A stretch of DNA of 64,000 nucleotides, taken from assembly GCA_000004985.1 (NCBI GenBank), contig GG738849.1, one strand, 5' to 3'. A program made the translations under genes and the position numbers. This document shows, one piece after another, positions 5,225-58,594 of the stretch. The DNA comes from Naegleria gruberi (lineage: Eukaryota). Every line of letters begins with the position of its first letter. Position 1 is the first letter of the stretch. The notes under the pieces are model-generated. The model was given only the letters and a program-made list of their open reading frames with translations, was not told where the DNA came from and ran no database searches.

Positions 5225-7636
5225 TTACTTTTTCGACAAAACTTTTTCGACAACACCTGCAGCAACAGTCTCGCCATTCACTCTAGCTGTTAAACGACCA
5301 AACTTGGCAAAATCAGCATACTTTTCAATTGAGATAGTATTATCAGTAACTATGGTTACAATAGCATTCGAATACTTTGGAATACATTTTGGTTTCTTTT
5401 CAAGTATTTCTAATTGCTTGTTTAAGGTACAAGTGAGTTTGGTAATTACAGCTGGAACATCAATGTTGTGCAAATGGAGAACAACATGAGCACCCTTAAT
5501 GATTGGTATCTTCATATCAAAGGTAGCAATTCTAGCCTTGAATCTATTTGTTACCTTAATTTCATTTCCAATAGGGCATAGAATTTGACCAACCATAAGC
5601 TTTTCTATATCAATAGATCCCAAACCAATTTCAACATTGTCACCAGCATAACCATGCTTGACAGGACTCTTATGACGAAGAATGGATTTAACTGTACAAA
5701 CTTCTCTAATTGGCATAATAACCAATTCGTCTCCTTCTGAGATAGTACCTGTTTCAATCTTACCAGCAACAGTAATACCAGTTGCCAATGATTTATAAAC
5801 ATCAGAAACCGACATTCTCAAGGCCTTTTCAATATCACGAGGTTTAGGTTCGAACTTGTCAATTCTTTCAACAACTGAAAGACCATCATACCATGAAATA
5901 GATCCTGATTTTGTGATCAAATTTTCTCCTTGAAGACCACTAGCAGGAATATAAAAAACATGACTACCGTCTTGAGTTTGGAATCCTATTTGTCTCATAA
6001 AGTCGTCCAATTGAGCTACAATACTATCATAACGTTCCTTTGACCATCCGATTGAGTCCAACTTGTTTACGACAACAATTACTTGTTCAACTCCCAAACT
6101 TCTAGCTAAAATCAAGTGTTCCTTAGTTTGACCTCCATTGGCAAATCCTGTTTCAAAACCACCAGGAGTTGAATCAATAACTAGAATAGCAAAGTCAGCT
6201 TGAGCAGCACCAGTAATCATTTTTGGAATAAAATCCTTGTGACCTGGGGCATCCAAAATGGTAACATGACGATTTGGTGTTTCGAAATATCGTACACCAA
6301 CATCCATTGTGACACCACGTTGTCTTTCCTCTTCATGTTCATCCATTACCCAAGCAAAGTGGAATGATGATTTACCAATTTCAACTGACTCCTTCTTGAA
6401 TTTACGTAAAGTATTCTCAGAAACATTTCCCAATTTGTAAAGTAAATGTCCCATCAAGGTTGATTTACCAGCATCAACGTGACCAATAATAACAACATTA
6501 ATACGCTTCTTTTCCTTATCCTCAGGAGCCTTGTGTTTAATACCAGAGGATTTAATTGGTTTTGGTGATTGTGGTTCCTTCTTTTCTGATTCATCAATAT
6601 CCATATCTAAAATTGTGGTATTCTTAGACTTATTCTTTTGAGGAGTTTGTTTCTTTTCAATTGGTTTAAAGTCCTCAAGAGGTTTGTGACTAGCTTTTTG
6701 TTGAGATCTAGCAGAACTAATGAGATCATCTGGAGATGGTGTGTCAAATTTAAAAAAATCAATTATAGGGGAAGAATTGGTGTTTGAATTATTAACATGT
6801 TTTTTGTTGTGGAGTATTTCATAATAGGGAGACAATCGTTCTGGAGAGTTTGCAAAAAATGACTTTACAAAGGATTCATTGGTGAGAGAGGTTGTAAGGC
6901 AACGACCAAAAGCTGATGCAACTGCTTGACCTGTTTCTTGATTCTTTTGATTTGACGAATCAGAGAGTGAGCTTTGTGAAAGCTTTTTGATAATTTCTCT
7001 TTCATCTTCACTCAAATCAGAATCATTATTGTCTAAATCTGTCTTGTTGGATTTTCTCATATTCTTCTTCTTGTTAGAAGAAACAGATCTGAGGTATTCT
7101 TCATCAGAGGACACTTCTTCCTCCGATGAGCTGATTGACTGTTGCACTTTTGGTGTTGATTTTACATCGCTTGGTGGTTGAGTGGAATTGGAAATTTTGG
7201 AACCTCTTCCTGCCGAGAGAGGAGTTGTGTTGTTATTATTATTACTGGAAGATGATGGTGTAGTGGTAGTAGAGTTATTATCTGATGTTGTTGGTGGTAT
7301 TGTAGAGGTTTCACTCTTTACGGTTATCACAGGCCCTGAATTATTCGTTCGCATCAATCCACCCCGTCCAGCACTTACTATTGGAGTTGATGATGATGTT
7401 GTTGTTGTTGTAGTTGTGGGTATATTACCACCACTCAACAGTGATGAACCTCTTCCGGCCGAATTATTGCTACTATTGTTTGCTATTGTGGAAACAACAA
7501 CTGGAGCACTGGAAATAACATTTCCTCTACCGATGCCAGCTACACTACTAACACTTGTTGGTTGTTGTTGATTGATGGTTGGTGAAGAATTGGCGTTTCC
7601 AAGAAGGAGCCCACCTCTTCCTCTACCAGCAGACAT
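5225..7636 (-). CDS. HBS1: HBS1-like translational GTPase (ribosome-rescue factor): GTPase and domains II/III, with a long S/T/N-rich N-terminal extension
   Basis: G1 motif is GHVDAGKST, G3 is DAPGHKDF and G4 is NKLD. The block LMGHLLYKLGNV..SFHFAWVMDEHEEERQRGVTMDV is closer to HBS1L than to eRF3 (from memory). The ATG at 7636 has the typical A-run context. It may instead be exon 4 of a larger gene (see 7773..8560). Confidence 0.85.
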   Translation of the reverse strand: MSAGRGRGGLLLGNANSSPTINQQQPTSVSSVAGIGRGNVISSAPVVVSTIANNSSNNSAGRGSSLLSGGNIPTTTTTTTSSSTPIVSAGRGGLMRTNNSGPVITVKSETSTIPPTTSDNNSTTTTPSSSSNNNNNTTPLSAGRGSKISNSTQPPSDVKSTPKVQQSISSSEEEVSSDEEYLRSVSSNKKKNMRKSNKTDLDNNDSDLSEDEREIIKKLSQSSLSDSSNQKNQETGQAVASAFGRCLTTSLTNESFVKSFFANSPERLSPYYEILHNKKHVNNSNTNSSPIIDFFKFDTPSPDDLISSARSQQKASHKPLEDFKPIEKKQTPQKNKSKNTTILDMDIDESEKKEPQSPKPIKSSGIKHKAPEDKEKKRINVVIIGHVDAGKSTLMGHLLYKLGNVSENTLRKFKKESVEIGKSSFHFAWVMDEHEEERQRGVTMDVGVRYFETPNRHVTILDAPGHKDFIPKMITGAAQADFAILVIDSTPGGFETGFANGGQTKEHLILARSLGVEQVIVVVNKLDSIGWSKERYDSIVAQLDDFMRQIGFQTQDGSHVFYIPASGLQGENLITKSGSISWYDGLSVVERIDKFEPKPRDIEKALRMSVSDVYKSLATGITVAGKIETGTISEGDELVIMPIREVCTVKSILRHKSPVKHGYAGDNVEIGLGSIDIEKLMVGQILCPIGNEIKVTNRFKARIATFDMKIPIIKGAHVVLHLHNIDVPAVITKLTCTLNKQLEILEKKPKCIPKYSNAIVTIVTDNTISIEKYADFAKFGRLTARVNGETVAAGVVEKVLSKK

Positions 7637-8583: not shown

Positions 8584-9474
8584 TTAAGGTGGCACTATTG
8601 TTCATTGTTCACCAAAATTTAAAAAAAAATAACAAGTCGAAACAGTTTATATCTTGTTTGTCCTTTGTGACAATCATTGCCACACAATACACGAGCTGAT
8701 TTACAAGGACAACTTTTGCAGTACATGAACATGAAACACCATGATCTATTTTCTTCTTCTTTCTTTTTCGGAAATTAATTTCTGTTGATTGTGTTTCTGA
8801 AACTATGCACTTCTTTCGTCAATTTTACAACAAGCATCTTGTTTTTTCTCCATAGCACTTGTCATAATTTCCACACCAGTGATCTACATACACATTCAGT
8901 ATTGTTCTTAGAATATTCTCTTTTGCATGCTACAGAAACAGTTGAATCCTATCTGATGGTTGAGAACTTCGTGATGCAACTTCGTGATGCGATTTCATTT
9001 AAAATTTGTAGAAACATCCGAAAATAAAATTAATTGGTTTTGATAGTACTTTTAGTTGCTTATTTTCAATACGGAAACACAATAAGAAGGCAAAGTAAAG
9101 TTGGTACAAACATAACAACACATCTAGACCATATCTTGTTTTTTGCAATGTTTAATTTTGTTACTGGAGTGTAGGAGAAGATTAAAACTTTAATTTTTTT
9201 ACCGTTACGATGATGAAGAACAATCGGATCATGTTGGGATTTCATTATTTATTCTAAAGAGAGTGAAAAGTAAAGCAAAGTAAAGTAGGGATAAACTATT
9301 CACATATAAGAGAAGATGCTGTCTTCTAACCAAGTCTCCAAATTTGTAGGAGAGTGTAGGAGAACCTCTCAAACTTTAATAAATTACTTCGTCATTCAGC
9401 AAGAATTGTAAAAAATAATTAACCAAAAATTTTTACCGAATTTCCTTTTATTGTCAGCTACAGTGCCACCTTAA
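8584..9474. mobile_element. candidate TTAA-flanked inverted-repeat (MITE-like) element in a divergent promoter region
   Basis: TTAAGGTGGCACT at 8584..8596 and its exact reverse complement AGTGCCACCTTAA at 9462..9474. This reads as a 9-bp TIR (GGTGGCACT) plus TTAA on each side. The interior is non-coding and holds a degenerate 185-bp direct duplication. Confidence 0.3.
9083..9438. repeat. degenerate direct duplication with about 185-bp period
   Basis: Collinear shared words at constant offset: CAAAGTAAAGT 9091 and 9276; GAGTGTAGGAGAA 9168 and 9353; AAACTTTAAT 9185 and 9371; TTTTTACCG 9196 and 9430. Confidence 0.7.
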
Positions 9475-14154: not shown

Positions 14155-14800
14155 TTACTTTTGGGAGAGCTTTGAACCAACATAAGTGTACCACCATGAG
14201 AAACAAATGGCAACTATTAGAAGTGAGTCAATCAATTAAGTGAAAAATATTCAGCAGAATAAGCAAAAAAGTTTCAATATCAAACATTAAAGATAATTTC
14301 AAAACATACCTGGAGTACCAATCATGAAAGTCATCCAAGCAGCAACAGCAGCCTTCTTTGGTGGACCATCTGTATTTGAAAAAAGTAGTAATCATTTAAT
14401 GGTATCCAAGAAAAATAAAGTGTTGAGAATCCCAAGTAAATGTGGCAGGTTTGTCCATTGACATACATTAGAAAGATAAACATGAATAATAACACATTAA
14501 ACAGAGCATTAGAAGCACGAATAAACAAATGAAAGTTATTATTAATGTACTTACTGGTAAACATGACCAACTAATTATTGTCATCCACATGGAATTTAAA
14601 TGCACAAAAGAGGGTAGTAGTATAAAAAGAATCCCGTAAAGAAAGCGAGTTTTTGAAAGGTTTAGTCAATTGTTTATCCATAAGCAGCATGAATATTAAA
14701 GATATAAAGATAAGAAACATACTTCGTGGTGGTGGTCATGGGCATCATGTCCTCTTCTTGGCAAGTTTCTGGCAGCACTTCTAATAAATCTGTTGAGCAT
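14155..14800 (-). CDS. small (about 70 aa) single-TM protein with a presequence-like N-terminus, possibly a respiratory-chain small subunit (COX7-like)
   Basis: Four exons: 14800..14723, 14570..14555 (16 nt), 14369..14310 and 14213..14155. Introns are 152, 185 and 96 nt with GTATGT or GTAAGT donors. Product: MLNRFIRSAARNLPRRGHDAHDHHHELVMFTNGPPKKAAVAAWMTFMIGTPGVAICFSWWYTYVGSKLSQK. Confidence 0.5.
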
Positions 14801-16545: not shown

Positions 16546-17098
16546 TTAAGCAATAGTAAAATTGAAAGAAACACAAGCAATTTCCTTGGTCTTGGAAGCG
16601 TCAGCATAGGCAGATGCAACAGTATTATAGGTTCCTGGGAAGGCGAATGATGGAATGGAATTTTGAATAGTGATGGCCTTGGTTCCTGGAGTGATTGGAC
16701 AACCACCAGAGACAGACTATTATTGTTTAAACTTTAATACACGAATCATGATGAAATACAAACCTTGCACAAATCATAAGTAAATTCAAACAATCTGACA
16801 CCTGATAAGTAAATATCAGCATACAAAATACCTGATGGAACAGTAGCAGATACGGTACCCTAGTTATGTGTCAATCAATGATTTTTTGATCATTAAATAT
16901 GATGATAATCAATTTACTTACGGTAGCAACAGCAACTAAAGTGTCACCAGCCTTTGGTTTGGCTGGAGTAATATCCAATGATTGTGGGAAGAAAACACCA
17001 TTACTCATACATTGTTTGAAAGGAGCTGGGTCTGCGCTAACCATCATTACAGTGGCAATCAAACAGACTAAGAGAATTGAGAGGATAATTTTGGCCAT
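16546..17098 (-). CDS. ML-domain (MD-2-related lipid-recognition, NPC2-like) secreted protein
   Basis: Signal peptide MAKIILSILLVCLIATVMMVSA. Exons are 17098..16922, 16859..16764 and 16716..16546. Introns are 62 nt (GTAAGT) and 47 nt (GTTTGT). The conserved Cys pattern is ..FKQC..DLCK..GGCPI..IACVSF. Confidence 0.7.
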
Positions 17099-17306: not shown

Positions 17307-17377
17307 GCATTAGTAGTGTAACGGTATCATACCAGCCTTCCAAGCTGGTGACCCGGGTTCGACTCCCGGCTAATGCA
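17307..17377 (+). tRNA. tRNA-Gly (anticodon UCC)
   Basis: GCATTAGTAGTGTAACGGTATCATACCAGCCTTCCAAGCTGGTGACCCGGGTTCGACTCCCGGCTAATGCA. The 7-bp acceptor stem is GCATTAG/CTAATGC and the anticodon loop is CTTCCAA. The T-arm is GGGTTCGACTCCC, and T-runs lie 5-14 nt downstream. Confidence 0.95.
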
Positions 17378-17588: not shown

Positions 17589-19308
17589 ATGGGTCAATCT
17601 CAAGAGAAAAGTACAAACACATTTTCAAACACTGATTCAAACAATAATATTGATGAAGTGGATGAATTGGAAGAATTAGATAAAATGATTAAATTGGACG
17701 GCTACACTCGAGACACTCCAACACCAGTAATGGATCCAACACTTTCAAAATTATTCCTCGGAGCAAGTAAAGGTAATTTTGATGAAATTCTCAAAATGGA
17801 TCACTCAGAATTGGAGCAATATGTGAATACAACAAACGATGGGGGTGTTACATTGTTATATCTGGCTTGTGAAAATGGAAGGGAAGATGTGATTAAATAC
17901 TTGTTGGCTGTGAAGGGATTGGATGTCAATTTTTTAGTGAGTTTGTTTTTGATAAGCAGTATTTAATGTTTGAATTTTGTCATTCAATTGAAGGAAGTAT
18001 GTAATTTTATATATTTGAATGGTTTCGAATAATGAAAAAGGGAGTAAGTAGTTGAATTACAAGAAAGTTTTAATTTTGTTTAAATACAGTTTGTAAGTAT
18101 ACATTTCTATGTGTTGTTCAGTAATTGAAAAATGAATAGTATGAGGTTGGTTTTTAATTTTCTATTTTTGGTAATTATTATAAAAGAAAAAAACAGTAAG
18201 TTGTAAACAATCAATTATTCTGATCCAACGAATATCTCTCTTTAGAAAAGAGATGGTGTAAGTTACATTTATCGAATCAATTCTTTTCTGAATACATTCA
18301 TATAGCTTGTAAGTATTTCATTTAAAGTTTAATTGGTTGTGAATAACTATTGTTAGGGAGTAAGTATACTTTTCAGTTATTGATATTTATTGTTATAACA
18401 ATATTGTAGAGTGTAAGTTAATAATATTAAACAAATTGTTGTAAAAATTCCAAATATAGAGTGTAAGTCAATCCTAAATTGTATAATTTTTTGATTAAAC
18501 TCTATTAATTCAGACACCTCTATTTGTTTCATGTAAACTTGGGAAAGTAAATATTGTAAAGTTATTGCTTCAAATGCCAGGAATTCAGGTAAATGAGGGC
18601 TTAACATTCAGTTCAGTATACTTGGACTCGTGTGGTCATGTTACAACCAGTCCACTCTATGCTGCATGTCAAGAAGGTCATTTGGAAATTGTAAAATTAT
18701 TATTGGACACTAAATCTATTGATCCTTATCGTGGAGAAGTTCATGATGCTGAAAATGCAATGTCATGTCTTGGAATTTCTATTTACAATGGAAAATGGGA
18801 AATTGCTTCCTTAATACTGAAAAGTATGACGTGTTGTGGTAGAAAGAAATCAGTTTTAATATTTAATAGGGATCCAATATCTGAAATTCTACTTGTATGC
18901 ATGAAAGGAAATGTTCAATTTCTGAAAGATTTATTGGAATCTAAATTGTTTGACCTTGATCACTGCGTAAGTTTCCCCATATTCCATGGAAATTATTCAA
19001 ATATGAATTAGTTTCCTTTGCATTTCTGTATTAAAAATAATGACAAGATTATGGCTAGCTTATTAATTGAGAATGGAGCTTCAACAAGTTTGAAATTTGA
19101 AAGATCAAAAGGATGTGGATATCTATTGTACAGTTTTTGTGGAAGAACATTTGATGATTTTGTAAAAATTAAGGATGGCAAGACTCCAATTGAACTGGCA
19201 AAGGAATTGAGATTTGATATTGGATCCTTGATGGGTGGAAGGTTGAAGAATAATTTGGGTAAATCATTTGACGCATTAAATGATGTCACTATTCAATTTA
19301 AAGAGTAA
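17589..19308 (+). CDS. ankyrin-repeat protein
   Basis: Exon 1 is 17589..17936 (..GGVTLLYLACENGREDVIKYLLAVKGLDVNFL). A microexon/intron ladder spans 17937..18513. The next exon is 18514..18966 (TPLFVSCKLGKVNIVKLLL..SPLYAACQEGHLEIVKLLL..). A 45-nt GTAAGT intron spans 18967..19011. The last exon is 19012..19308 (FPLHFCIKNNDKIMASLLIENGAS..). Confidence 0.7.
17937..18513 (+). other. ladder of about 10 short introns separated by 3-12-nt phase-0 microexons inside the ankyrin gene
   Basis: AG|NNN|GT(A/T)(A/T)GT occurs 7 times, at gaa 17994-96, gga 18041-43, ttt 18090-92, ctt 18306-08, gga 18357-59, agt 18410-12 and agt 18460-62. There is also AG|aaaagagatggt|GTAAGT at 18246-57. The intervening segments are 57, 44, 46, (ambiguous 18093-18245), 48, 48, 50, 47 and 51 nt. 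Confidence 0.6.
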
Positions 19309-21020: not shown

Positions 21021-21091
21021 CTCGAGTGCCGGGAATTGAACCCGGGTCGCCAGAGTGACAGTCTGGAATGCTACCACTATACCACACCCGA
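21021..21091 (-). tRNA. tRNA-Asp (anticodon GUC)
   Basis: The reverse complement is TCGGGTGTGGTATAGTGGTAGCATTCCAGACTGTCACTCTGGCGACCCGGGTTCAATTCCCGGCACTCGAG. The acceptor stem is TCGGGTG/CACTCGA (one G-U pair) and the anticodon loop is CTGTCAC. A T5 run lies at 21014..21010 on the minus strand, 6 nt downstream. Confidence 0.95.
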
Positions 21092-24479: not shown

Positions 24480-25787
24480 ATGAACGTGCAACACATAAAG
24501 ACCATTTCATCTTCCTCCTCAGAGGATGAACGAATTTCCATTATCAAATCAGAGAAAGCCTCTTCATCATCAGCATCACGTAGAAAAGTAATTTTAGGAA
24601 TTTCCATCACAATGATTATTCTGGTGATTTGTTTGATTGTTTTGGGAGTAATTGTGATGGCTATTTGTTTTGGAGTTGGTTCATATGTGTGGGATTTAGC
24701 ATTTGGAACTGATAAAGCAGAGGATTGTCCGAATAGTGTGAGACAGAACAGACCTTGGAATTTTACTGTGGCCGATGCTGATTATTGTCCTCCCTTGGTT
24801 GATTCCTATAATTATTCATTGTTGAAGAATGTTTATTTGAATTATGATGAAATTAAACCATATTTTGAGGAGGTTACATTTAAATCGAGAGATACTGAGT
24901 GGGTTGCAAGTGGAAGTGGAAATATTGTTGGAAATTTGGTGTTACAACCAGTTGTGAATGAAACGAGTCGTTTTGTGATTGTTGTGCACGGATATCAATG
25001 TTGTAGATTTACGTATGCAAGTGTTGAGCCAGCTGCCATGCTCTATAGAAATGGATTCAATGTCTTGTATATTGATTTGAGAAATTATGGAGATTCTGAT
25101 ATTTATGCTCCAAATCCATACGCTTCATATGGTTATTATGAACATCGTGATGTTTTGGGAGCTTTGGATTATTTGGAGAGTAGATTTAAATTCCTAAAGA
25201 ATGCTTCACAACCAAGAGTGGCTGTTTTTGGAACTTCAATGGTAAGTCTTTCAGGAAATAATTATTGAAACTAAACTGTTCAGGGAGCTGCAACCTCATT
25301 GATTGCCTTCTCACAAGAGAAGAGATTCAAAATGGTATTTGCCGATTCACCACCTTGTAACGTGTACGAAACAATAATGTTTGGAGCTGAACAAATTGCT
25401 CCTGGCATGTCGGGTGCCCTTTTTAATTTAGCCAAATCAGTAGTTGCAATTAAGGGAACTCAAGGATTTCCACCATTCCCTCTCGATCCTCAAACATGCA
25501 TGAAAACTGTTGACCTATCAGGAGAGAGAAGAATATTCTTCTTCCAAGGTTCATCAGATTATGTAGTTCCAGAATTCAATTATTATCAATGTATTGAAGC
25601 AGCTACCGCCAGTGCCAAATCTCAGAACGTAAACATTACAGAAAAGATCAATTCACACTTGTTTGAAGTGGATTATTCCAAGATTAGTGGAAGAGGAGTT
25701 GATTTTTGTGATGGACACCTGGTGCCAATGTATGTCGATCCTGCAGGATATGAAAAGATAATGATTGGATTTTTCAAAGATTTGTAG
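24480..25787 (+). CDS. membrane-anchored alpha/beta-hydrolase
   Basis: N-terminal TM (ILGISITMIILVICLIVLGVIVMAICFGV). The nucleophile elbow G-T-S-M-G is reconstituted across a 42-nt GTAAGT..CAG intron at 25242..25283 (..VAVFGTSM|GAATSLIAF..). Exons are 24480..25241 and 25284..25787. Confidence 0.7.
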
Positions 25788-26883: not shown

Positions 26884-27840
26884 TTAAATGAATGGAATGT
26901 CAACACCCAATCTCCATTGTGCCAAAGTGAGAGCAATACCACTCATAATTGGAATTGACAAGTTATCATTAATCTGATCGAGGAAAAGTTCAGTAAGTGT
27001 GGCAGTAATTGCACCAACAAGTGAAATATATTCATAGAGATGAACATGATAAAAGATTGAAAATCCAACAAGGAGACAAACTAAAAAGTTTGCAATGCAT
27101 CCTTCCAATGATTTGCTCTTGTAAACTCTAACTCTACCAAATGAAATACCAACCAATGCAGCAGACAAGTCACCCAAATCCAAGAATAAAAGAGAAGCAA
27201 TAGCAATTGTTGGTTGGAAAAGAATCATTGTCAAGAGTGAACCAATCAAATAATAAGTAGAACCGTTGATATCATTAATTTCCTTCTTTCTCATAATTCT
27301 ACCAGCTGGTGAATCTTGGAAAAACTTGTTGAATTTGTCAGAATTTAATCTCAAAATCTAATTTACATGACATTATGATAATTGACAAGATTCATAAAAC
27401 ATCATAAATCATCAAATAACAAATTGTCATTATTTAAATAATATTATGATCAAATAGTCATCACAACAAGATATTTAAATAATAATAAACGTAATTGTTA
27501 TCACCAACAGTATCGGATCATCATGATGACAAATAAAATTCAACCACTATAAACTTACATCAACTGCAAGTGAAAGACCAGCAAATCCAGCAACAATAGA
27601 ACAAGCATAGAATTGAGACAAGAATTCAAACTTCAATCCAAAATAATAAATACCAGGAACCAACAAACCAATCAAGTGGAATGTCTTTCTCTTAAATTCA
27701 CTCATAAATTTAGCAGCTCTTTGTTTGGATGTTCCTAAAAATTCTCGTACTTGTTGTTGAACACCTTTTCCTTTGAGAAACACTGACACTACCAGGGCAC
27801 TGATAGTCATGACCGTTAAGAGAATCCACAAGAGGTTCAT
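26884..27840 (-). CDS. polyprenol/dolichol kinase-family (CTP-dependent) integral membrane protein
   Basis: Exons are 27840..27559 and 27357..26884, with a 201-nt GTAAGT..TAG intron at 27558..27358. The protein is multi-TM. The C-terminal block GDLSAALVGISFGR..KSLEGCIANFLVC resembles the cytidylyltransferase/dolichol-kinase family motif. Confidence 0.5.
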
Positions 27841-30951: not shown

Positions 30952-33084
30952 ATGAGTTCATCCCAAACACCATCATCACAACAAGGAGGTGAGTCATCCA
31001 ATCCACCTTCAAGTAGCAGCAGCAGTGGTATCAATCAATACAATACTTCTCAAGCTACAGGAGGTTCCTCGTCATCTTATTATGGTCGGGGTAGTGGTAG
31101 TAGCGGTGGTGGTGGAAATACTTCAGCCTCTTCTCATCATTCATATAATAATAATTATAATTATTATTCTAGGTCTTCCGGTGGTAGTAGTAGTGGAGGT
31201 TATAATTATAATCGCTCTGGAAATTATTACAATAATAGTGGACATTATTCACAAAGTCAACAACCTTCTTCGACATCATCATCGTCATCGACGAGTGGTA
31301 ATACCAACCCAAATTCTGCAAATCCACAACCACCTCCACCTACAAGTGGTAGTGATAATTCTACAATGTCTACATCGGCAACAAATGTGACTGCCGCAAC
31401 AGGAGCCTCTTCATCATCTATGAGTCAGGATGGAGGAAATTCTCAATCATCCTATCATCAGTATGGTAATTATAGAAGATTTGGAAATGATCAACAACAA
31501 ATGTATTCGGGAAGAGATTATTATTATAGAAGAGATGCAGGATATGATCAATATAGAACAGATGACATGTCATATAATAGATCCTACTATCAACAAAACT
31601 ATCAAAGAAAGAATTTTTCCTCTCCAAGTGGTTACAATAACAAGTATTATTACAATACCACAAGTCCATATACAAGCTATCATGCAAGTAGCAATCCAAC
31701 TGCAGCAGCTGCTGCATTAGCTTCTAGGCAATCCAGCGAACAGTCCAAGTCACAAACCAACACTTCAACATCAACTACTACCAGTAACGAGACTACCCCA
31801 AGCAAAAATTCAACAGTATCAAATGCAACAAATGTAACAACAACAACAGTGGATTCTACCAATCCTCCCCAACAAACCACAACAACACCTCCACCACCAA
31901 CTGTTAGCAATAGTAATGCTATGAGTAGTGGCAACACTTCAGTGCCATCCACACCAACCAAGTCTGTCACAAATGCAACAGACCAGCAGCCAGTTACACC
32001 TTCGGAAAAGAGCTATTCATCACATTATCACGATGTTAATTCATATGGATCTCATTACGATCCAAATTTAATGCAAGATGACATGTACAAGTACGATCAT
32101 GATTACTATGGATACGATAGAAGATATAATTATCAAATGAGAGGAAGAGATTATTACGATCACAGAGGAACTTATCAAACTGATCCAAACTATAGGTACG
32201 CATCACCAAAGGATGCCTATGCCTACAATTCAGCAACAGGTTATGACCATCGTTCTTCCACAAGTGGTGTTAATACTTCTTCTTCACAAGTTTCCTCTTC
32301 GACTGGTACTCCAACCAGTGCAACAAGTGTTGATAAGGCATCTTTTTGGAACAATCCTCAATATAATAGAGATAATTATTACTACAAGCAACAACAGCCA
32401 TACCAAGGAGCATATAGTACACAATCAACAACCAATGCTTCATATAGCACCCCTCCAAGACAAAATCTTCAAGTTGACACCAGATTCAATAATGCCAACT
32501 ATAATAAGGCCAATGCATCAGCTTCCACACCTATTTCTACACCTTCCAAATTGTCTTCAACAGCTGGAAATTTCTCTACTCAACCTTCAACACCAACTAG
32601 TGCCTTATCTAATCGACCAACAACAACGCCAATAAGTGCTAACACTGTTGCTTACGTAAACCAATCAGTTTTTCCAACTAACAGCCAACCTGTTGAGCAG
32701 CAACAACCTCCAATGTGGGATTATAATGATTATATGGGAACTTTTAAATATTATGATAGTCAAACTCAAAAACATATTATTCGTGTAAGTGAGGGAGACA
32801 ATGAATTGGATATGATTAATGAAAGCTTGGAGAGAATAAGGGAGGAAAAGAGACAACTCTATGAGAAATATCTTGCCTCACAAAAGAGGGTTTTGGAAAC
32901 TGACTATAATTTAATGTTGGCTGAGCTTGATGTCATTGTCTCCAGCACATCAACTATGGACACCACCCCAGAAACAGTCACTCCTCCAATTTCTGAAACT
33001 AGTTTCTCTACTACTACTACTTCTTTAGATATTACATCCCCACAAACACAACTCGATACAAGTGCCATGCAAATTTCAGTATAG
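30952..33084 (+). CDS. S/N/Y/Q/T-rich low-complexity (prion-like) protein with a short C-terminal coiled coil
   Basis: 710-aa uninterrupted ORF. ATG after A9. The only structured-looking part is ..INESLERIREEKRQLYEKYLASQKRVLETDYNLMLAELD... Confidence 0.5.
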   Translation: MSSSQTPSSQQGGESSNPPSSSSSSGINQYNTSQATGGSSSSYYGRGSGSSGGGGNTSASSHHSYNNNYNYYSRSSGGSSSGGYNYNRSGNYYNNSGHYSQSQQPSSTSSSSSTSGNTNPNSANPQPPPPTSGSDNSTMSTSATNVTAATGASSSSMSQDGGNSQSSYHQYGNYRRFGNDQQQMYSGRDYYYRRDAGYDQYRTDDMSYNRSYYQQNYQRKNFSSPSGYNNKYYYNTTSPYTSYHASSNPTAAAAALASRQSSEQSKSQTNTSTSTTTSNETTPSKNSTVSNATNVTTTTVDSTNPPQQTTTTPPPPTVSNSNAMSSGNTSVPSTPTKSVTNATDQQPVTPSEKSYSSHYHDVNSYGSHYDPNLMQDDMYKYDHDYYGYDRRYNYQMRGRDYYDHRGTYQTDPNYRYASPKDAYAYNSATGYDHRSSTSGVNTSSSQVSSSTGTPTSATSVDKASFWNNPQYNRDNYYYKQQQPYQGAYSTQSTTNASYSTPPRQNLQVDTRFNNANYNKANASASTPISTPSKLSSTAGNFSTQPSTPTSALSNRPTTTPISANTVAYVNQSVFPTNSQPVEQQQPPMWDYNDYMGTFKYYDSQTQKHIIRVSEGDNELDMINESLERIREEKRQLYEKYLASQKRVLETDYNLMLAELDVIVSSTSTMDTTPETVTPPISETSFSTTTTSLDITSPQTQLDTSAMQISV

Positions 33085-38385: not shown

Positions 38386-38501
38386 TTTTAATAATAATGA
38401 TTTATTATTGAAATTACTTTTTGCGCCTTAAATTTAAAAAAGTGAACGTTAATCAGTACTGGTTATTTGAAAACTCTCATAAGGAATCATCTTTAAAAAA
38501 A

Positions 38502-40553
38502 ATGGAACAACCTTACCCTTACTCCCATTTTTCAACCACCAACAATTATAACCAAAGGAATAATATGTGGATGAAGGAATCAGAAGACCCTGCCTATGTA
38601 TATAATTATAGTGCCACAGACGATGATATGTCATCCTCATACGAATATTCTTCAAATTGGAGCCAAAGTGCCTCGAACTATTCAGCAAATACAGCAACTA
38701 CCCAATCTTCTCTCACTTCAAAAGAATCCGAGCAGGTTGATCAATTCTTATCATCACTCTATGGATCCGATTATGAAAATATTATTAGTGATGACTCGAG
38801 TTGGAATTCAAGGCAAACGTCTGACCAATTTAAAAACGTGGCCAATATGTCGTTAGCAGAGCTTAATGATGCCCTAAACATCATGTTGCCTTATGAATCA
38901 CCAAACAAAACTACTTCATCAGAGAATAGTAGTGGCAAAATTTCTTCTTCCCATTCACCAACTTTGAAACCTTCAACCAGAAAGACTTCAAATAATTCAA
39001 TCTTTCATGCCCTCTATGAGAATAGTAATGACTGTTTTAGTGGAGCAAAATCTTGTATTGATCTCTCGTCGACGAGTGGCAGTAACAAGGAGAATACCTA
39101 TGCAACTAGCCCTTTGTCCAGTAACAGATCATCTCTATGTTTATCGCCATGTTCTACCAGTAGCTCTCTAACAAAGGTTAGAGAATTCAATCTCCAAACC
39201 GAGAAGAGATCCAGAATTATTAATAATGATATTGTGAAAAAAGAGGAGAAAGAATGTACTTTTCGACCAAAAATCAATTCAACCTCGTCAAGCATTGTAC
39301 AGTGTGACAAGTTTCACGACAGATTAGTAAAATGGCAAGAGAAAAAACGAAAAGAAACTGAGAGAAAGAGAGAGGAATTACTTCAGGAAGAAAATACTCA
39401 ATGTACATTTAAACCAAAAGTATTTTCAGTATCCTCAAATACAGAATCAGATGCGTGTATCAAGCTATTCAACAGTGCAACAAAGTTGGTCGAGAAAAAG
39501 AAGCACAATATTAAAAAGTTGGAACAAGAAGAAATGAAAGAATGTTCCTTCAAGCCATCCATATCAGGAGATCCTTCAGTACAATCAAGGTATTTGGATC
39601 AATCAAAGAAATCAACATCTACTGTGGAGGATGAAGAATGTACCTTCCAGCCAAACATTAGAAAGTCCATTGGAGGACAAAACTCTTCCTATCTTAAGAG
39701 TAATCCCTTTGAAAGATTGAGTAAGGTAAATAGATCTAGAATGGAATTTGATGAAAAAGATTCATTGTTGGATGAATTGACTGATTTGGAATCAGTCGAT
39801 TCATCAAATCAATCAAGTTGGCAGTCTTCTAGACCAAGTTCTGCACCATCCTCAAGGGGAGGAAGAGCTTACCAGGCATCTGTTGAGGAAACTAGTAGAA
39901 AAACCTTTAAGGATTTCATAGACAGGCAACAAAACACAATGAAAAGGAAGGAGCAAAAGATAAATTTCATTAAGAGCAATATGGAACACTCACACAAGCC
40001 TTCAATCAACAAAACTAGTATTGATTTGGCGAAAAATAGAAGTAAGACACCTTTTGAAGAACGGGTAAAGAATGAAATTAACAGAAAGAAACTAAATGAA
40101 AGGCAACAATCCGCACTTGCTGAGAAAAATTGTACATTCCAGCCCCAAATTAACAAAACCTCAAAACAGCTACCCTCGAGAGGGGTGGAAGAGTTGAGTA
40201 AGGGAGATTTGAACCTGAAACAAAAGAAAATAGAACAAACAAAGAAGGTTCTTGAGAGAAGTGAGTTTAAAGACGTAACATTCAAACCAAAAACCAACAA
40301 TGGTACTAAAGCCAAGTCAATTCTCAAATTATCGACTGAACCAGAAACCTATATTGAAAGAATTACTCAATATAAGGAACGAAATGAATACAAGAAGAAA
40401 ATGATGCTGCTTTCAAAGGAACAAAAAGAGCTCGAAGAGTGTACCTTCAAGCCACAAATTCACGATGCACCAGTTTATGTTAAAGAGATTGCTAAATCGA
40501 TGGCATTTGCAAGACAATTAGAGAATCAAGAAATACAAATTAAATGGCGTTAG
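38502..40553 (+). CDS. repeat protein with seven (E/K)-C-T-F-x-P-x-I motifs
   Basis: ATG at 38502 after A8. The motifs are KECTFRPKI, TQCTFKPKV, KECSFKPSI, EECTFQPNI, KNCTFQPQI, KDVTFKPKT and EECTFKPQI. They are spaced 30-85 aa apart in K/E-rich sequence. Confidence 0.55.
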   Translation: MEQPYPYSHFSTTNNYNQRNNMWMKESEDPAYVYNYSATDDDMSSSYEYSSNWSQSASNYSANTATTQSSLTSKESEQVDQFLSSLYGSDYENIISDDSSWNSRQTSDQFKNVANMSLAELNDALNIMLPYESPNKTTSSENSSGKISSSHSPTLKPSTRKTSNNSIFHALYENSNDCFSGAKSCIDLSSTSGSNKENTYATSPLSSNRSSLCLSPCSTSSSLTKVREFNLQTEKRSRIINNDIVKKEEKECTFRPKINSTSSSIVQCDKFHDRLVKWQEKKRKETERKREELLQEENTQCTFKPKVFSVSSNTESDACIKLFNSATKLVEKKKHNIKKLEQEEMKECSFKPSISGDPSVQSRYLDQSKKSTSTVEDEECTFQPNIRKSIGGQNSSYLKSNPFERLSKVNRSRMEFDEKDSLLDELTDLESVDSSNQSSWQSSRPSSAPSSRGGRAYQASVEETSRKTFKDFIDRQQNTMKRKEQKINFIKSNMEHSHKPSINKTSIDLAKNRSKTPFEERVKNEINRKKLNERQQSALAEKNCTFQPQINKTSKQLPSRGVEELSKGDLNLKQKKIEQTKKVLERSEFKDVTFKPKTNNGTKAKSILKLSTEPETYIERITQYKERNEYKKKMMLLSKEQKELEECTFKPQIHDAPVYVKEIAKSMAFARQLENQEIQIKWR

Positions 40554-40701: not shown

Positions 40702-41980
40702 ATGGAACCAATTGATGACTCTGATCTCGAAAATGCTATGCAGGATACTAACTCTACAAATCTCTCCACTCTAGAGAAAAAGTTAAAGGAGAAGAATCAG
40801 CAGCTGAAAAAGGTTTGTATTATCTTGTTGTCTACGAATGTCAACACAACATAGCTATCAAAAGCTTTCTATGCTCTCCAACAAGAGAAGAGAGACTTGG
40901 AAGAGTATTGTATTGTGTTGGAATCGGAAAATATGGAATTTAAAAAAGTTAGGGAACAAATGGATTTCCTCAAAAGCAAAGACGAAGACATTGCTAGACA
41001 ACATCAAAAGCTTTTAGAAAATGAGGAAAGACACATTCAAAAATTGGAAAGAGATATTGAAAAGTATAAAGACGAGAAGAAGAAACTTCAATCAAAGATC
41101 AAGGATTACTTTCTTCCTGAAATCAAAAAATTGCAAATGCTTAGTTCAAAACTGGAAAAGAGTAACATTATGCAAAAAAATCAAATCAAGGAATTTAAAC
41201 GAGAAGTCCAAGAAAAGAATCAAAGGATTAATGAAATGATTGAAGAAAATAGAAGGGATGAATCTCTTCAGAATATCAAGTTTCTTAGAGATCAAAATTC
41301 GACACTTCAAGCAGATCTTAAAGTACTGAAACAAAAACTTGTCACAAAGAACGCATTATGTGAAGATCAGTATGTTGAGCTTCAAGATCTGAGAGCAAAA
41401 GTCGAGGATTTGGATAACAAGCTAGCAAGGAAAACAAATTGGAATCAACAGACTCAATTATTTTACACAGAAAAGAAAGAGCACATAGATGTATTAAAGA
41501 GGGAAAAGATGGCACTCACACGACAACTTAAAAAAGAAGGTAAAAAAGCAACGAAACGAGAAGAAATTATTACAGACCTACTGGAAAGAAATGCTAAACT
41601 GAGAGAGGCCCTTATATGTACGAGTGTTCCTCCAGCCACAGTAGTTGACCATGTTGTCGAAAAATCATTCTATGACAATGTTTCGAATCAACTTAAACTT
41701 ATACAGCAACAGTTAGATATGGACGTGGTTGGTGATCCGTAAGTACTATTAGTTTTATAAGATTATTAATTATCAAAATAATCATTTGTTTAAAAACAGA
41801 GAGCACATTGAAACCAACAGACTTGAAAAGGTAGTTCAAGAAATTCCAATCACATTCCCAACATCCCCACCAAGATTTGATGATAACAAAGAATTAACAA
41901 AAGAACTGAAAAATGAAAGTGCAAGACTTCTCACAAAATCAGTGTTTTTAACGAACGAATTTAAGGAAGTCAACATTTAA
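40702..41980 (+). CDS. coiled-coil protein
   Basis: Exons are 40702..40812, 40855..41738 and 41800..41980. Introns are 42 nt (GTTTGT) and 61 nt (GTAAGT). The protein shows heptad-rich K/E/L sequence throughout. Confidence 0.55.
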
Positions 41981-58413: not shown

Positions 58414-58594
58414 CAAATGTTTTAAAAAGTTGTAGTTTATGCACGAATCTGAACCTAAAGTCCAAAAGAACTTATGCACATTAGAATAATGCGTCTTTCG
58501 AAACTATCTCTTTCAGCACAAATAACAGCGATCTAACACTCCCACTTGGCAGAGATTTAGCTCAAGAACAAGCTGACACACAATAGGCATTGAA

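What the first reader, a model, noticed from the sequence alone, without database searches (positions are those of the whole stretch)
17937..18513. Ladder of about 10 consecutive mini-introns separated by 3-nt microexons inside one ankyrin loop
Between exon 1 (ending ..DVNFL at 17936) and the exon resuming at 18514 (TPLFVSCKLGK..), one pattern recurs with a 47-53-nt period. The pattern is (T/A-rich)AG | NNN | GTAAGT or GTATGT.

The units, in order, are:
- intron 17937-17993 (57 nt), then gaa
- intron 17997-18040 (44 nt), then gga
- intron 18044-18089 (46 nt), then ttt
- an ambiguous stretch at 18093-18245. It can be parsed as 47 nt + tatgag + 41 nt + aaaaaaaca + 50 nt.
- aaaagagatggt (18246-57, encoding KRDG)
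- intron 18258-18305 (48 nt), then ctt
- intron 18309-18356 (48 nt), then gga
- intron 18360-18409 (50 nt), then agt
- intron 18413-18459 (47 nt), then agt
- intron 18463-18513 (51 nt)

Why this looks real:
- Every inter-intron piece is a multiple of 3, so any combination of inclusion or skipping keeps the frame.
- The segment lengths match the modal intron size of this genome.
- The segments share no sequence similarity beyond the splice signals, so this is not a recent tandem duplication.
- If all pieces are included, the ankyrin loop reads FL-E-G-F-(YE)-(KKT)-KRDG-L-G-S-S-TPLF. KRDG plus one residue before TPLF fits the ankyrin consensus D-x-x-G-x-TPL.

Seven 3-nt exons in a row would require ordered (recursive, 5'-to-3') splicing. 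They could also allow codon-by-codon variation of loop length. I know of no described equivalent.
Basis: seen in the sequence. Interest (0 to 1): 0.85.

Follow-up and report, generated by a model that had tools for sequence, protein, structure and literature searches.

The report
Ladder of mini-introns with one-codon exons
Inside one loop of an ankyrin-repeat gene of a Naegleria-like amoeba, about ten normal-looking 41-57-base introns sit back to back, mostly separated by single codons; chance cannot produce this and I found no described equivalent, but no RNA data were available to show how it is spliced.

Summary
The 577 nt at 17937-18513 hold 8 of the 24 plus-strand GTAAGT hexamers of the 64-kb window (Poisson P about 7e-12). 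Seven of ten donors have AG exactly 3 nt upstream, against 4 of 88 donor-like hexamers elsewhere. Every spacer is 3, 6, 9 or 12 nt long.

The units match this genome's ORF-joining short introns in length (41-61 nt), donor sequence and base composition. Their interiors share no detectable similarity, so this is not a recent tandem repeat or a multi-copy element.

The host is a heterolobosean close to Naegleria. The gene is a lineage-specific ankyrin-repeat protein, and the ladder fills the loop between repeats 1 and 2.

Best reading (confidence 0.6): an array of separately recognised spliceosomal introns, removed one after another, leaving in-frame microexons.

Caveats:
- There is no transcript and no orthologue.
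- One rung has a degenerate donor (GTTGGT).
- Ankyrin profiles fit best a loop with only KRDG plus one residue.
- Introns of about 95-205 nt without internal donors are inferred in the same window.

The closest known things are zero-nucleotide ratchet points in Drosophila and schistosome micro-exon genes. This locus meets the defining features of neither. Codon-by-codon loop variation remains speculation.

The parts
17589..17936 (+). Exon 1 of the ankyrin-repeat gene (ATG to ..GLDVNFL, 116 codons). It contains ankyrin repeat 1.
   Evidence: Open frame from the ATG. Pfam Ank/Ank_2/Ank_3 hits.
17937..17993 (+). Rung 1: 57-nt intron-like unit, GTGAGT...AAG.
   Evidence: Retention gives a stop at codon 126.
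17994..17996 (+). 3-nt microexon GAA (Glu).
   Evidence: AG-N3-GTATGT junction.
17997..18040 (+). Rung 2: 44 nt, GTATGT...AAG.
18041..18043 (+). 3-nt microexon GGA (Gly).
   Evidence: AG-N3-GTAAGT match at 18039.
18044..18089 (+). Rung 3: 46 nt, GTAAGT...CAG.
18090..18092 (+). 3-nt microexon TTT (Phe).
   Evidence: AG-N3-GTAAGT match at 18088.
18093..18186 (+). Ambiguous stretch. Either one 94-nt intron (GTAAGT...AAG), or rung 4 (18093-18139, 47 nt) + TATGAG (Tyr-Glu) + a degenerate rung 5 (18146-18186, 41 nt, donor GTTGGT). This is the weak point of the ladder.
   Evidence: If AG 18139 is used and GTTGGT is not, the result is a 56-nt exon with an in-frame stop. An inferred, homology-unconfirmed intron of about 96 nt lies elsewhere in the window.
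18187..18195 (+). 9-nt microexon AAAAAAACA (Lys-Lys-Thr).
   Evidence: Lies between AG 18186 and GTAAGT 18196.
18196..18245 (+). Rung 6: 50 nt, GTAAGT...TTTAG. It has the most pyrimidine-rich 3' end of the set.
18246..18257 (+). 12-nt microexon AAAAGAGATGGT (Lys-Arg-Asp-Gly), the conserved D-G part of the ankyrin loop.
   Evidence: Adding KRDG raises the ankyrin profile scores: Ank_4 26.1 to 38.2 bits, and 42.9 bits with one more residue.
18258..18305 (+). Rung 7: 48 nt, GTAAGT...TAG.
18306..18308 (+). 3-nt microexon CTT (Leu).
   Evidence: match at 18304.
18309..18356 (+). Rung 8: 48 nt, GTAAGT...TAG.
18357..18359 (+). 3-nt microexon GGA (Gly).
   Evidence: match at 18355.
18360..18409 (+). 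Rung 9: 50 nt, GTAAGT...TAG.
18410..18412 (+). 3-nt microexon AGT (Ser).
   Evidence: match at 18408.
18413..18459 (+). Rung 10: 47 nt, GTAAGT...TAG. It is flanked by AGT on both sides.
   Evidence: (family D5).
18460..18462 (+). 3-nt microexon AGT (Ser).
   Evidence: match at 18458.
18463..18513 (+). Rung 11: 51 nt, GTAAGT...CAG, phase 0, directly before TPLF. This is the same position in the ankyrin repeat as the gene's other intron (before FPLH).
18514..18966 (+). Exon resuming at TPLFVSCKLGK.. (151 codons).
18967..19011 (+). Ordinary 45-nt intron (GTAAGT...TAG) joining ..DLDHC to FPLHFC... It serves as the in-gene reference for a normal intron.
   Evidence: ORF-joining test.
19012..19308 (+). 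Last exon, ending in TAA.

Best explanation
The 577 nt are a tandem array of ten (or eleven) separate U2-type GT-AG introns of this genome's normal minimal size. They interrupt the codons of one inter-repeat loop of an ankyrin-repeat gene in a Naegleria-like heterolobosean amoeba. They are separated by symmetrical microexons of 3 nt (seven times), 9 nt, 12 nt and possibly 6 nt.

Inferred mechanism:
- Each ~48-nt unit is recognised across the intron (intron definition), with its donor paired to the nearest downstream branch site and AG.
- A 3-nt exon leaves no room for acceptor recognition of intron n and U1 binding at donor n+1 at the same time. Neighbouring introns must therefore be removed one after another, most simply 5' to 3' as transcription proceeds. 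Each ligation then supplies a normal-length 5' exon for the next donor.
- Formally this is re-splicing 3 nt downstream of a fresh junction.
- Because every spacer is a multiple of 3 and none is a stop codon, the product stays in frame. It carries the loop FL-EGF-(YE)-KKT-KRDG-LGSS-TPLF.
- Skipping a rung also stays in frame. Retaining a rung gives an early stop.

Shown: the anatomy, its non-random character, and the likeness to real introns of this genome.
Inferred: that the sites are used, the order of removal, and the origin. The likely origin is old local multiplication of an intron at the conserved pre-TPL position, followed by divergence of the interiors.
For: 1. GTAAGT is about 50-fold enriched in the region (P about 7e-12) and is spaced at intron length.
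2. AG lies exactly 3 nt upstream of 7 of 10 donors, against a 4.5% background. All spacers are multiples of 3 and none is a stop codon. That is what is expected if the spacers are translated.
3. Nine ORF-joining short introns elsewhere in the window are 41-61 nt, all have GTAAGT donors, and are 43% T and 34% A. The rungs are 41-57 nt, 43% T and 35% A, with the same TAG/CAG/AAG ends and A/T-rich TAAT/TAAC-like motifs 10-20 nt upstream of the AG.
4. Rung interiors show no similarity to each other (the highest z among 55 pairs is 2.6; TRF finds nothing) or to the rest of the window. Only the splice signals are shared. Either selection kept them, or each rung arrived as a ready-made intron.
5. Four longer putative introns of about 95-205 nt in the same window, inferred from frame and splice signals, contain no internal GTAAGT. 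AT-rich intron sequence therefore does not produce such sites by itself.
6. The KRDG microexon restores the ankyrin loop consensus.
7. Every rung, if retained, gives a premature stop.
8. In a complete scan of 2.9 million viral contigs, the three-rung pattern occurs only inside true tandem repeats, with unit identity 0.57-1.0 against 0.42-0.51 here.
9. There is no Rfam match and no unusual RNA structure that would suggest another role.
Against: - There is no RNA evidence of any kind. No transcript-derived protein and no orthologue exist in the 5.8-billion-protein collection, so neither use nor conservation could be tested.
- One rung has a non-consensus donor (GTTGGT at 18146). A competing AG at 18139 would give an unproductive 56-nt exon.
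- Ankyrin profiles score highest for a loop with only KRDG plus one residue and lowest for full inclusion, so the extra 9-11 residues are not needed for the fold.
- Putative introns of about 95-205 nt in this window (one supported by a Pfam hit limited to its downstream exon, the rest by frame and splice signals only) suggest that removal as one or two long introns is not mechanically excluded.
- Simultaneous recognition of sites 3 nt apart is sterically implausible, so the array may splice inefficiently.
- Only one such locus is seen in 64 kb, and none in 41 kb of relatives.
Confidence: 0.6

Rival explanations
1. Leaky or decaying ladder. The array arose as in the best explanation, but it is now spliced only partly or inefficiently. 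Transcripts would be a mixture of in-frame skipped forms and forms with premature stops. The locus would then be either a gene on its way to becoming a pseudogene, or one whose output is throttled by unproductive splicing and mRNA decay.
For: - The GTTGGT donor at 18146 and the competing AG at 18139 give a 56-nt exon with a stop.
- Every retention event gives an early stop.
- The gene is lineage-specific, with no orthologue even in Naegleria species.
- Ankyrin profiles prefer the short loop.
Against: - The other nine or ten donors are consensus or near-consensus: 8 GTAAGT, 1 GTATGT, 1 GTGAGT.
- All three large exons are open (116 + 151 + 98 codons).
- The 94-nt reading of 18093-18186 avoids the defect, and a putative intron of about 96 nt, inferred from frame and splice signals, lies elsewhere in the window.
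Confidence: 0.2
2. One or two long introns with unused internal sites. The spliceosome pairs donor 17937 with acceptor 18245, and donor 18258 with acceptor 18513 (or 17937 with 18513). The internal GTAAGT/AG pairs would be silent relics.
For: - Putative introns of about 95-205 nt, inferred from frame and splice signals, lie in the same window.
- FL-KRDG-TPLF and FL-KRDG-x-TPLF fit the ankyrin models best.
- Exons of 3 nt are hard to recognise.
Against: - Silent sites would not keep eight perfect GTAAGT, ten AG and strict multiple-of-3 spacing while the interiors diverged beyond recognition.
- Strong consensus donors inside an intron normally compete with the outer donor.
- The other putative long introns of this window have no internal GTAAGT.
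- With KRDG alone the loop is one residue short of the canonical seven, so at least one 3-nt exon is still needed.
Confidence: 0.12
3. Not a splicing device. On this view it would be a DNA- or RNA-level array: a decayed minisatellite, a run of transposon or introner insertions, a protein- or U1-binding platform, or a small-RNA source that happens to lie in an intron.
For: - The roughly 50-nt periodicity.
- Rung 10 is flanked by AGT on both sides, like a 3-bp target-site duplication.
- A TTAA-specific DNA transposon that differs between strains lies in the same window.
Against: - There is no unit similarity, no terminal inverted repeats, and no copies elsewhere in the window.
- There is no Rfam hit. 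The whole region folds only modestly better than its shuffles (z -2.26), and ten of the eleven rungs fold no better than shuffles, the same spread as in the reference introns.
- The conserved letters are exactly the splice signals, on the coding strand, in frame, and at the place where the ankyrin reading frame has a gap.
Confidence: 0.04

Closest known systems
Recursive splicing at ratchet points in Drosophila long introns (zero-nucleotide exons; 10.1101/006163, PMC8605326)
   Same: An acceptor and a consensus GTAAGT donor lie next to each other inside what would otherwise be one intron. After the upstream segment is removed, the next donor sits at or beside the new junction, and the intron is taken out stepwise, 5' to 3'.
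   Different: - Ratchet points are AG|GTAAGT with no nucleotide in between. The plus strand of this window has no AGGTAAGT at all, and here 3 nt separate the two signals.
- Ratchet points leave nothing in the mRNA. Here each step would leave a codon.
- Ratchet points subdivide introns of tens of kilobases into kilobase segments. Here the segments are already minimal introns (41-57 nt) and the whole region is 577 nt.
Micro-exon genes (MEGs) of Schistosoma (PMC10526429, PMC4350168)
   Same: Runs of very short symmetrical exons, as short as 3 bp, whose lengths are multiples of 3. Any combination of inclusion and skipping keeps the frame.
   Different: - MEG exons (3-81 bp) are separated by long introns of up to 5 kb. 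They make up most of the coding sequence of small secreted proteins, and they form gene families.
- Here the introns are minimal, nearly all the exons are exactly 3 nt, the array is confined to one loop of an ordinary ankyrin-repeat protein, and the organism is a protist.
Single 3-nt microexons in animals (for example cytohesin-1, PMC6314551; MAP4K5, PMC8632122; RPS24 with 3-, 18- and 22-bp microexons, PMC12207440)
   Same: They show that a spliceosome can include an exon of one codon and so add one residue to a protein.
   Different: They are isolated exons flanked by long introns and depend on exon-definition helpers. At most three microexons occur in a row, and there are no arrays with minimal introns.
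Intron gain by expansion of an intron-containing repeat (Cryptococcus CNN00420, PMC2395259)
   Same: Local multiplication of introns within one gene. This is a plausible origin for a ladder.
   Different: There the gained introns are identical or nearly identical to their neighbours and sit in a repetitive coding region. Here no similarity is left and the exons are 3 nt.
Introners, that is transposon-derived introns (PMC9860276, PMC12130899)
   Same: They produce many new introns that carry their own splice signals, sometimes with short target-site duplications.
   Different: Introners are multi-copy families with recognisable sequence similarity, dispersed over many genes. The rungs resemble neither each other nor anything else in the window.

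Membership tests
U2-type GT-AG short introns of this genome | Consensus donor (GTAAGT, less often GTATGT or GTGAGT) and terminal AG | tested here: met
   10 of 11 units meet it (8 GTAAGT, 1 GTATGT, 1 GTGAGT). One has GTTGGT. All end in AG. The nine reference introns all have GTAAGT.
U2-type GT-AG short introns of this genome | Length and base composition of the genome's short-intron class | tested here: met
   Rungs are 41-57 nt, T 0.43 and A 0.35. Reference introns are 41-61 nt, T 0.43 and A 0.34.
U2-type GT-AG short introns of this genome | Branch-point motif at the usual distance from the 3' end | tested here: inconclusive
   TAAT/TAAC/TAAA-like motifs lie 10-20 nt before the AG in most rungs and in the reference introns. 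Such motifs are common in AT-rich sequence, and no model could be trained on nine introns.
U2-type GT-AG short introns of this genome | Removal restores an open frame that fits the protein family | tested here: met
   Full inclusion and every skipped variant stay in frame. The KRDG microexon improves the ankyrin profile scores.
U2-type GT-AG short introns of this genome | Spliced junctions seen in RNA | not testable with these tools
   No transcript-derived protein or contig exists for this gene.
Drosophila-type recursive splice sites (ratchet points) | Acceptor and donor directly juxtaposed (AG|GTAAGT, zero-nucleotide exon) | tested here: not met
   There are 0 AGGTAAGT on the plus strand. 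The junctions are AG-N3-GT.
Drosophila-type recursive splice sites (ratchet points) | They subdivide very long introns and leave no trace in the mRNA | tested here: not met
   The whole region is 577 nt and the segments are 41-57 nt. Each step would leave 3 nt or more.
Schistosome-type micro-exon genes | Serial symmetrical micro-exons (multiples of 3) | tested here: met
   Spacers are 3, 3, 3, (6), 9, 12, 3, 3, 3 and 3 nt.
Schistosome-type micro-exon genes | Long introns between the micro-exons; micro-exons make up most of the coding sequence of a small secreted protein | tested here: not met
   Introns are 41-57 nt. The microexons give 14-16 of 381 residues of an ankyrin-repeat protein.
Tandem repeat or minisatellite | Units alike in sequence | tested here: not met
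   TRF finds only a 10-nt, two-copy repeat. Pairwise z is at most 2.6, and adjacent pairs are below 1.9.
Introner or transposon-derived introns | Multi-copy family, terminal repeats, target-site duplications | tested here: inconclusive
   There is no similarity among rungs or to the rest of the window, and there are no inverted termini. Only 64 kb of the genome could be searched. Only rung 10 has identical flanking triplets (AGT).
Ankyrin-repeat protein (host gene) | Matches to ankyrin profiles above the curated cut-offs | tested here: met
   Ank_2 scores 40-50 bits (cut-off 27.3), and Ank and Ank_3 are above their cut-offs. All 212 database relatives are ankyrin proteins.

The most novel reading that the evidence does not exclude
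The ladder records a local intron-multiplying process. In this reading, each event places a new minimal intron exactly one codon away from an existing one, for example by reverse splicing shifted by 3 nt, or by duplication of the acceptor-codon-donor junction. The spliceosome of this amoeba then routinely splices across exons of one codon by obligatory stepwise re-splicing. Three nucleotides would be the smallest exon it tolerates, which matches the span I recall U5 snRNA loop I holding on each side of a junction. If so, similar ladders should occur at other loci and in related strains. The locus would then give both a natural minimal-exon model and a direct view of how introns are gained.
Probability: 0.25. 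Interest if true: 0.9.

Novelty: new variant of a known kind. Interest (0 to 1): 0.77.

Why it matters
If the rungs are used, this would be, as far as I could find, the densest packing of spliceosomal introns described: about ten introns in 577 nt, with seven exons of a single codon.

- **Limits of splicing.** It would set a natural lower bound on exon size for intron-defined splicing. It would also force neighbouring introns to be removed in sequence, so splicing order and steric limits could be tested on a 600-nt substrate in a culturable kind of amoeba.
- **Origin of introns.** Ten introns gained in one protein loop of a genome that otherwise has few introns points to a local gain mechanism. 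Known models (transposon-like introners, repeat expansion, repair insertions) do not obviously explain it.
- **Annotation.** I would expect gene predictors and standard RNA-seq aligners to miss 3-nt exons. Such loci would then be mis-annotated as truncated or split genes.

Tried and rejected
1. **Metagenome scan for the three-rung pattern.** Nearly all hits are (AAGT)n microsatellites, where AG-TAA-GTAAGT matches trivially. The rest are ordinary tandem repeats.
2. **Refined pattern on prokaryote genomes.** I changed the pattern so that the spacer cannot begin with T, which excludes stop codons and the microsatellite. Most matches are tandem repeats, with a few chance triples of GTAAGT and nothing longer.
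3. **Refined pattern on viral contigs.** This scan was complete. It gave 12 stretches, all true repeats. It is useful only as a null.
4. **Exact look-ups.** The exon-1 read-through ORF and both neighbouring genes are not on record, so there is no independent copy of the locus.
5. **Synteny.** The HBS1-like neighbour was fetched from N. lovaniensis and from two metagenome relatives (41 kb in all). These loci hold no ankyrin orthologue and no donor cluster.
7. **Other roles for the region.** Rfam gave nothing. Folding the region gave z -2.26. Folding each rung gave values like those of ordinary introns.
8. **Rungs as copies of other window sequence.** Rejected; every BLAST hit has E > 0.1.
9. 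**Literature.** Searches for tandem or stacked introns, 3-nt exons, and Naegleria introns or introners found no description of such an array.
10. **The idea that long introns cannot be spliced here, so a ladder is needed.** Weakened by the putative introns of about 95-205 nt in the window, which have no internal donors.
Full report
**What the window is.**
The window is compact, gene-dense eukaryotic DNA with 29-37% G+C. It has long open exons, few introns and two tRNA genes. An HBS1/eRF3-like GTPase at 5225-7636 (minus strand) is 61-65% identical to proteins of Naegleria lovaniensis, N. fowleri and an unnamed metagenome relative. Willaertia magna is the next best hit. The source is therefore a heterolobosean amoeba close to Naegleria.

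A metagenome contig (ENA ERZ929261) is 99.0-99.5% identical to 7.6 kb of the window. The organism therefore exists in the environment as a slightly different strain. That contig does not reach the finding.

**The gene.**
An ATG at 17589 opens a 116-codon exon. It ends ..GGVTLLYLACENGREDVIKYLLAVKGLDVNFL, which is ankyrin repeat 1. The frame resumes at 18514 with TPLFVSCKLGKVNIVKLLLQMPGIQVN.., which is repeat 2. It runs to 18966, is interrupted by an ordinary 45-nt intron (18967-19011, GTAAGT...TAG), and ends at TAA 19306-19308.

Pfam ankyrin models match well. All 212 database relatives are ankyrin-repeat proteins, but the best is only 36% identical over 39% of the query, and no Naegleria protein is among the best 120. 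The gene is lineage-specific. No transcript-derived copy of it is in the 5.8-billion-protein collection.

**Check of the observation.**
Between 17937 and 18513 there are eleven units that begin with a donor-like hexamer and end in AG:
- 8 begin with GTAAGT
- 1 begins with GTATGT
- 1 begins with GTGAGT
- 1 begins with a degenerate GTTGGT

Unit lengths are 57, 44, 46, 47, 41, 50, 48, 48, 50, 47 and 51 nt. The pieces between them are GAA, GGA, TTT, (TATGAG), AAAAAAACA, AAAAGAGATGGT, CTT, GGA, AGT and AGT.

The pattern cannot be chance:
- Eight of the 24 plus-strand GTAAGT hexamers of the 64-kb window lie in these 577 nt.
- From the window's own rate 0.155 are expected, so Poisson P(>=8) = 7e-12. 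None of 20000 shuffles of the region reached five.
- AG lies exactly 3 nt upstream of 7 of 10 ladder donors, but of only 4 of 88 donor-like hexamers elsewhere.
- A three-rung pattern matches three times in the window and never in 100 dinucleotide shuffles.

Donor-to-donor spacing is 47-62 nt, not 47-53. The seven 3-nt pieces form runs of three and four rather than seven in a row.

**Are the units like real introns of this genome?**
I listed introns that are required to join two long open frames. Nine short ones stand out: +18967-19011, +25242-25283, +41739-41799, -56240-56180, -54892-54846, -43374-43326, -29298-29258, -28392-28352 and -868-819.
- They are 41-61 nt long, all start with GTAAGT and end in TAG, CAG or AAG. 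Their composition is 43% T and 34% A.
- The rungs are 41-57 nt, 43% T and 35% A, with the same kinds of ends and the same A/T-rich TAAT/TAAC-like motifs 10-20 nt before the AG.
- Like most of the reference introns, the rungs have no unusual RNA structure: ten of eleven fold no better than shuffles, and one in each set reaches z about -2.6 to -2.9.

The window also holds longer putative introns, inferred from frame and splice signals. One of 205 nt lies in a gene whose downstream exon hits the ML domain in Pfam. One is 201 nt. Others of 152, 185 and about 96 nt lie in a small three-intron gene. None of these has an internal GTAAGT. So AT-rich intron sequence does not produce such sites by itself. 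It also suggests that this spliceosome is not limited to 50-nt introns.

**Are the units a repeat or a mobile element?**
- TRF finds nothing beyond a 10-nt, two-copy repeat.
- The repeat finder aligns only the junction motifs.
- A shuffle test on all 55 pairs of interiors gives a maximum z of 2.6, and below 1.9 for adjacent pairs.
- BLAST of each rung against the window gives nothing better than E = 0.1.

Only the splice signals are shared. There are two ways to read this. The rungs may be old duplicates whose interiors have randomised while selection kept 60 donor and 20 acceptor positions and the multiple-of-3 spacing. Or each rung arrived as a ready-made intron. Either way the signals are, or were, functional splice signals.

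Some junctions recur beyond the consensus: TAG-AGT-GTAAGT twice in adjacent rungs, AG-GGA-GTAAGTA twice, and A(C/T)AG-(T/C)TT-GTAAGTAT twice. This is a faint hint of common descent, or of a junction preference.

**What the protein says.**
- The homologue consensus is DxNxxxxxGxTPL, with seven residues between N and T.
- FL + KRDG + one residue gives exactly seven.
- Scoring the two-repeat segment with different loops gives these Ank_2 scores: 42.7 bits with everything skipped, 45.7 with KRDG, 50.2 with KRDG + S, 43.2 with KRDGLGSS, and 40.4 with full inclusion.
- Ank_4 rises from 26.1 bits to 42.9 with KRDG + S.

So the 12-nt KRDG exon and at least one 3-nt exon are needed for a canonical repeat. 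The other 9-11 residues are extra. From general knowledge of ankyrin structures, they sit in the inter-repeat hairpin loop, the part most tolerant of insertions.

The last rung lies in phase 0 directly before TPLF. That is the same repeat position as the gene's ordinary intron before FPLH. This suggests an ancestral intron at that position, from which the ladder grew. This step is inference.

**Consequences of splicing choices.**
- Full inclusion gives an open 381-codon frame.
- Each rung, if retained, gives a stop within about 45 codons.
- Any skipping of microexons stays in frame, by construction.

The weak point is 18093-18245. A productive product needs one of three things: the GTTGGT donor at 18146, a 94-nt intron from 18093 to 18186, or a 153-nt intron to 18245. 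If AG 18139 is used and GTTGGT is not, a 56-nt exon with a stop results. I regard the 94-nt reading as the most likely. It amounts to a rung lost by donor decay, which the multiple-of-3 design tolerates.

**Most likely mechanism (inferred).**
Each unit would be recognised across the intron. A 3-nt exon cannot hold acceptor recognition of one intron and U1 pairing of the next (positions -3 to +6) at the same time. Neighbouring introns therefore have to be removed in sequence, most simply as they are transcribed. Each ligation then creates a proper 5' exon for the next donor. This works like recursive splicing, except that each step leaves one codon behind. None of this could be tested here.

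**Rivals.**
- A leaky or decaying array, with much unproductive product (0.2).
- One or two long introns with silent internal sites (0.12). This is hard to reconcile with perfect signals and strict multiple-of-3 spacing beside randomised interiors.
- A function unrelated to splicing (0.04). There is no Rfam hit, no structure, no repeat and no inverted termini.

**Controls in large collections.**
- My metagenome scan was spoiled by (AAGT)n microsatellites.
- With a spacer that cannot start with T, a complete scan of 2.9 million viral contigs gave 12 stretches. All are true tandem repeats, with unit identity 0.57-1.0 against 0.42-0.51 for the window's rungs.
- No ladder and no orthologue were found in 41 kb from N. 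lovaniensis and two metagenome relatives.

**Comparison with what is known.**
- Drosophila ratchet points share the logic of juxtaposed acceptor and donor and stepwise removal (10.1101/006163, PMC8605326). They have zero-nucleotide exons, lie in very long introns and leave nothing in the mRNA. Both of those defining features were tested here and not met.
- Schistosome micro-exon genes share serial symmetrical micro-exons down to 3 bp (PMC10526429). They have kilobase introns and a different gene architecture.
- Single 3-nt exons are known in animals (PMC6314551, PMC8632122).
- Intron multiplication by repeat expansion is known in Cryptococcus (PMC2395259), but there the copies are still alike.
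- Six literature searches found no description of a run of minimal introns separated by single codons. The library is incomplete, so this is absence of evidence.

**Verdict.**
The interpretation as a ladder of real mini-introns is the best-supported reading (0.6), but it rests on sequence statistics alone. Ordered splicing is a sound inference. Regulated codon-by-codon variation is unsupported. I rate it a new variant of known kinds (microexons and stepwise splicing) and of high interest, pending one RT-PCR.

Noticed in passing
window 8584-9474 (element 8588-9470): An 883-bp insertion with perfect 9-bp terminal inverted repeats (GGTGGCACT...AGTGCCACC), flanked by a duplicated TTAA. The 99%-identical metagenome strain (L001) has the empty site with a single TTAA. 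It looks like a non-autonomous TTAA-specific (piggyBac-like) DNA transposon that differs between strains, so it was mobile recently. It lies between the HBS1-like and Nop53-like genes.
   Followed up: partly
window 14213-14800, minus strand: A small gene (MLNRFIRSAARNLPRRGHDAHDHHHE-LVMFT-N-GPPKK...SKLSQK, 70 aa) appears to need a 16-nt microexon (14570-14555). It lies between a 152-nt intron (GTATGT, 14722-14571) and a 185-nt intron (GTAAGT, 14554-14370), followed by a 96-nt intron (14309-14214). Without the 16 nt the frame hits a stop. There is no Pfam hit, so the model is not confirmed by homology.
   Followed up: partly
window 16717-16921 and 27358-27558, minus strand: Two putative long introns, 205 and 201 nt, both with GTAAGT donors. 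The first lies in an ML-domain (Npc2-like) gene, but the Pfam hit covers only the downstream exon (residues 63-114). The second lies in a membrane protein that has no Pfam hit. If real, intron length in this genome is bimodal (about 41-61 nt and about 95-205 nt). Neither contains an internal GTAAGT.
   Followed up: partly
window 17307-17377 and 21021-21091: tRNA-Gly(TCC) lies only about 210 nt upstream of the ankyrin start codon on the same strand. tRNA-Asp(GTC) lies on the minus strand 1.7 kb downstream of the gene.
   Followed up: no
window 30952-33084 and 38421-40553, plus strand: Two open frames of 710 residues each, with no Pfam family. A 774-residue frame at 56155-58479 (minus strand) also has none. 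I did not check whether the two 710-residue proteins are related to each other.
   Followed up: no
loci L004, L012, L025, L041 and others (metagenome contigs returned): Long imperfect (AAGT)n microsatellite arrays, up to about 900 nt (L025 105-1029). They dominate matches to any pattern built on AG-NNN-GTAAGT. This is a trap for genome-wide scans for recursive-splice-like motifs. Excluding T at the first spacer position removes them.
   Followed up: yes
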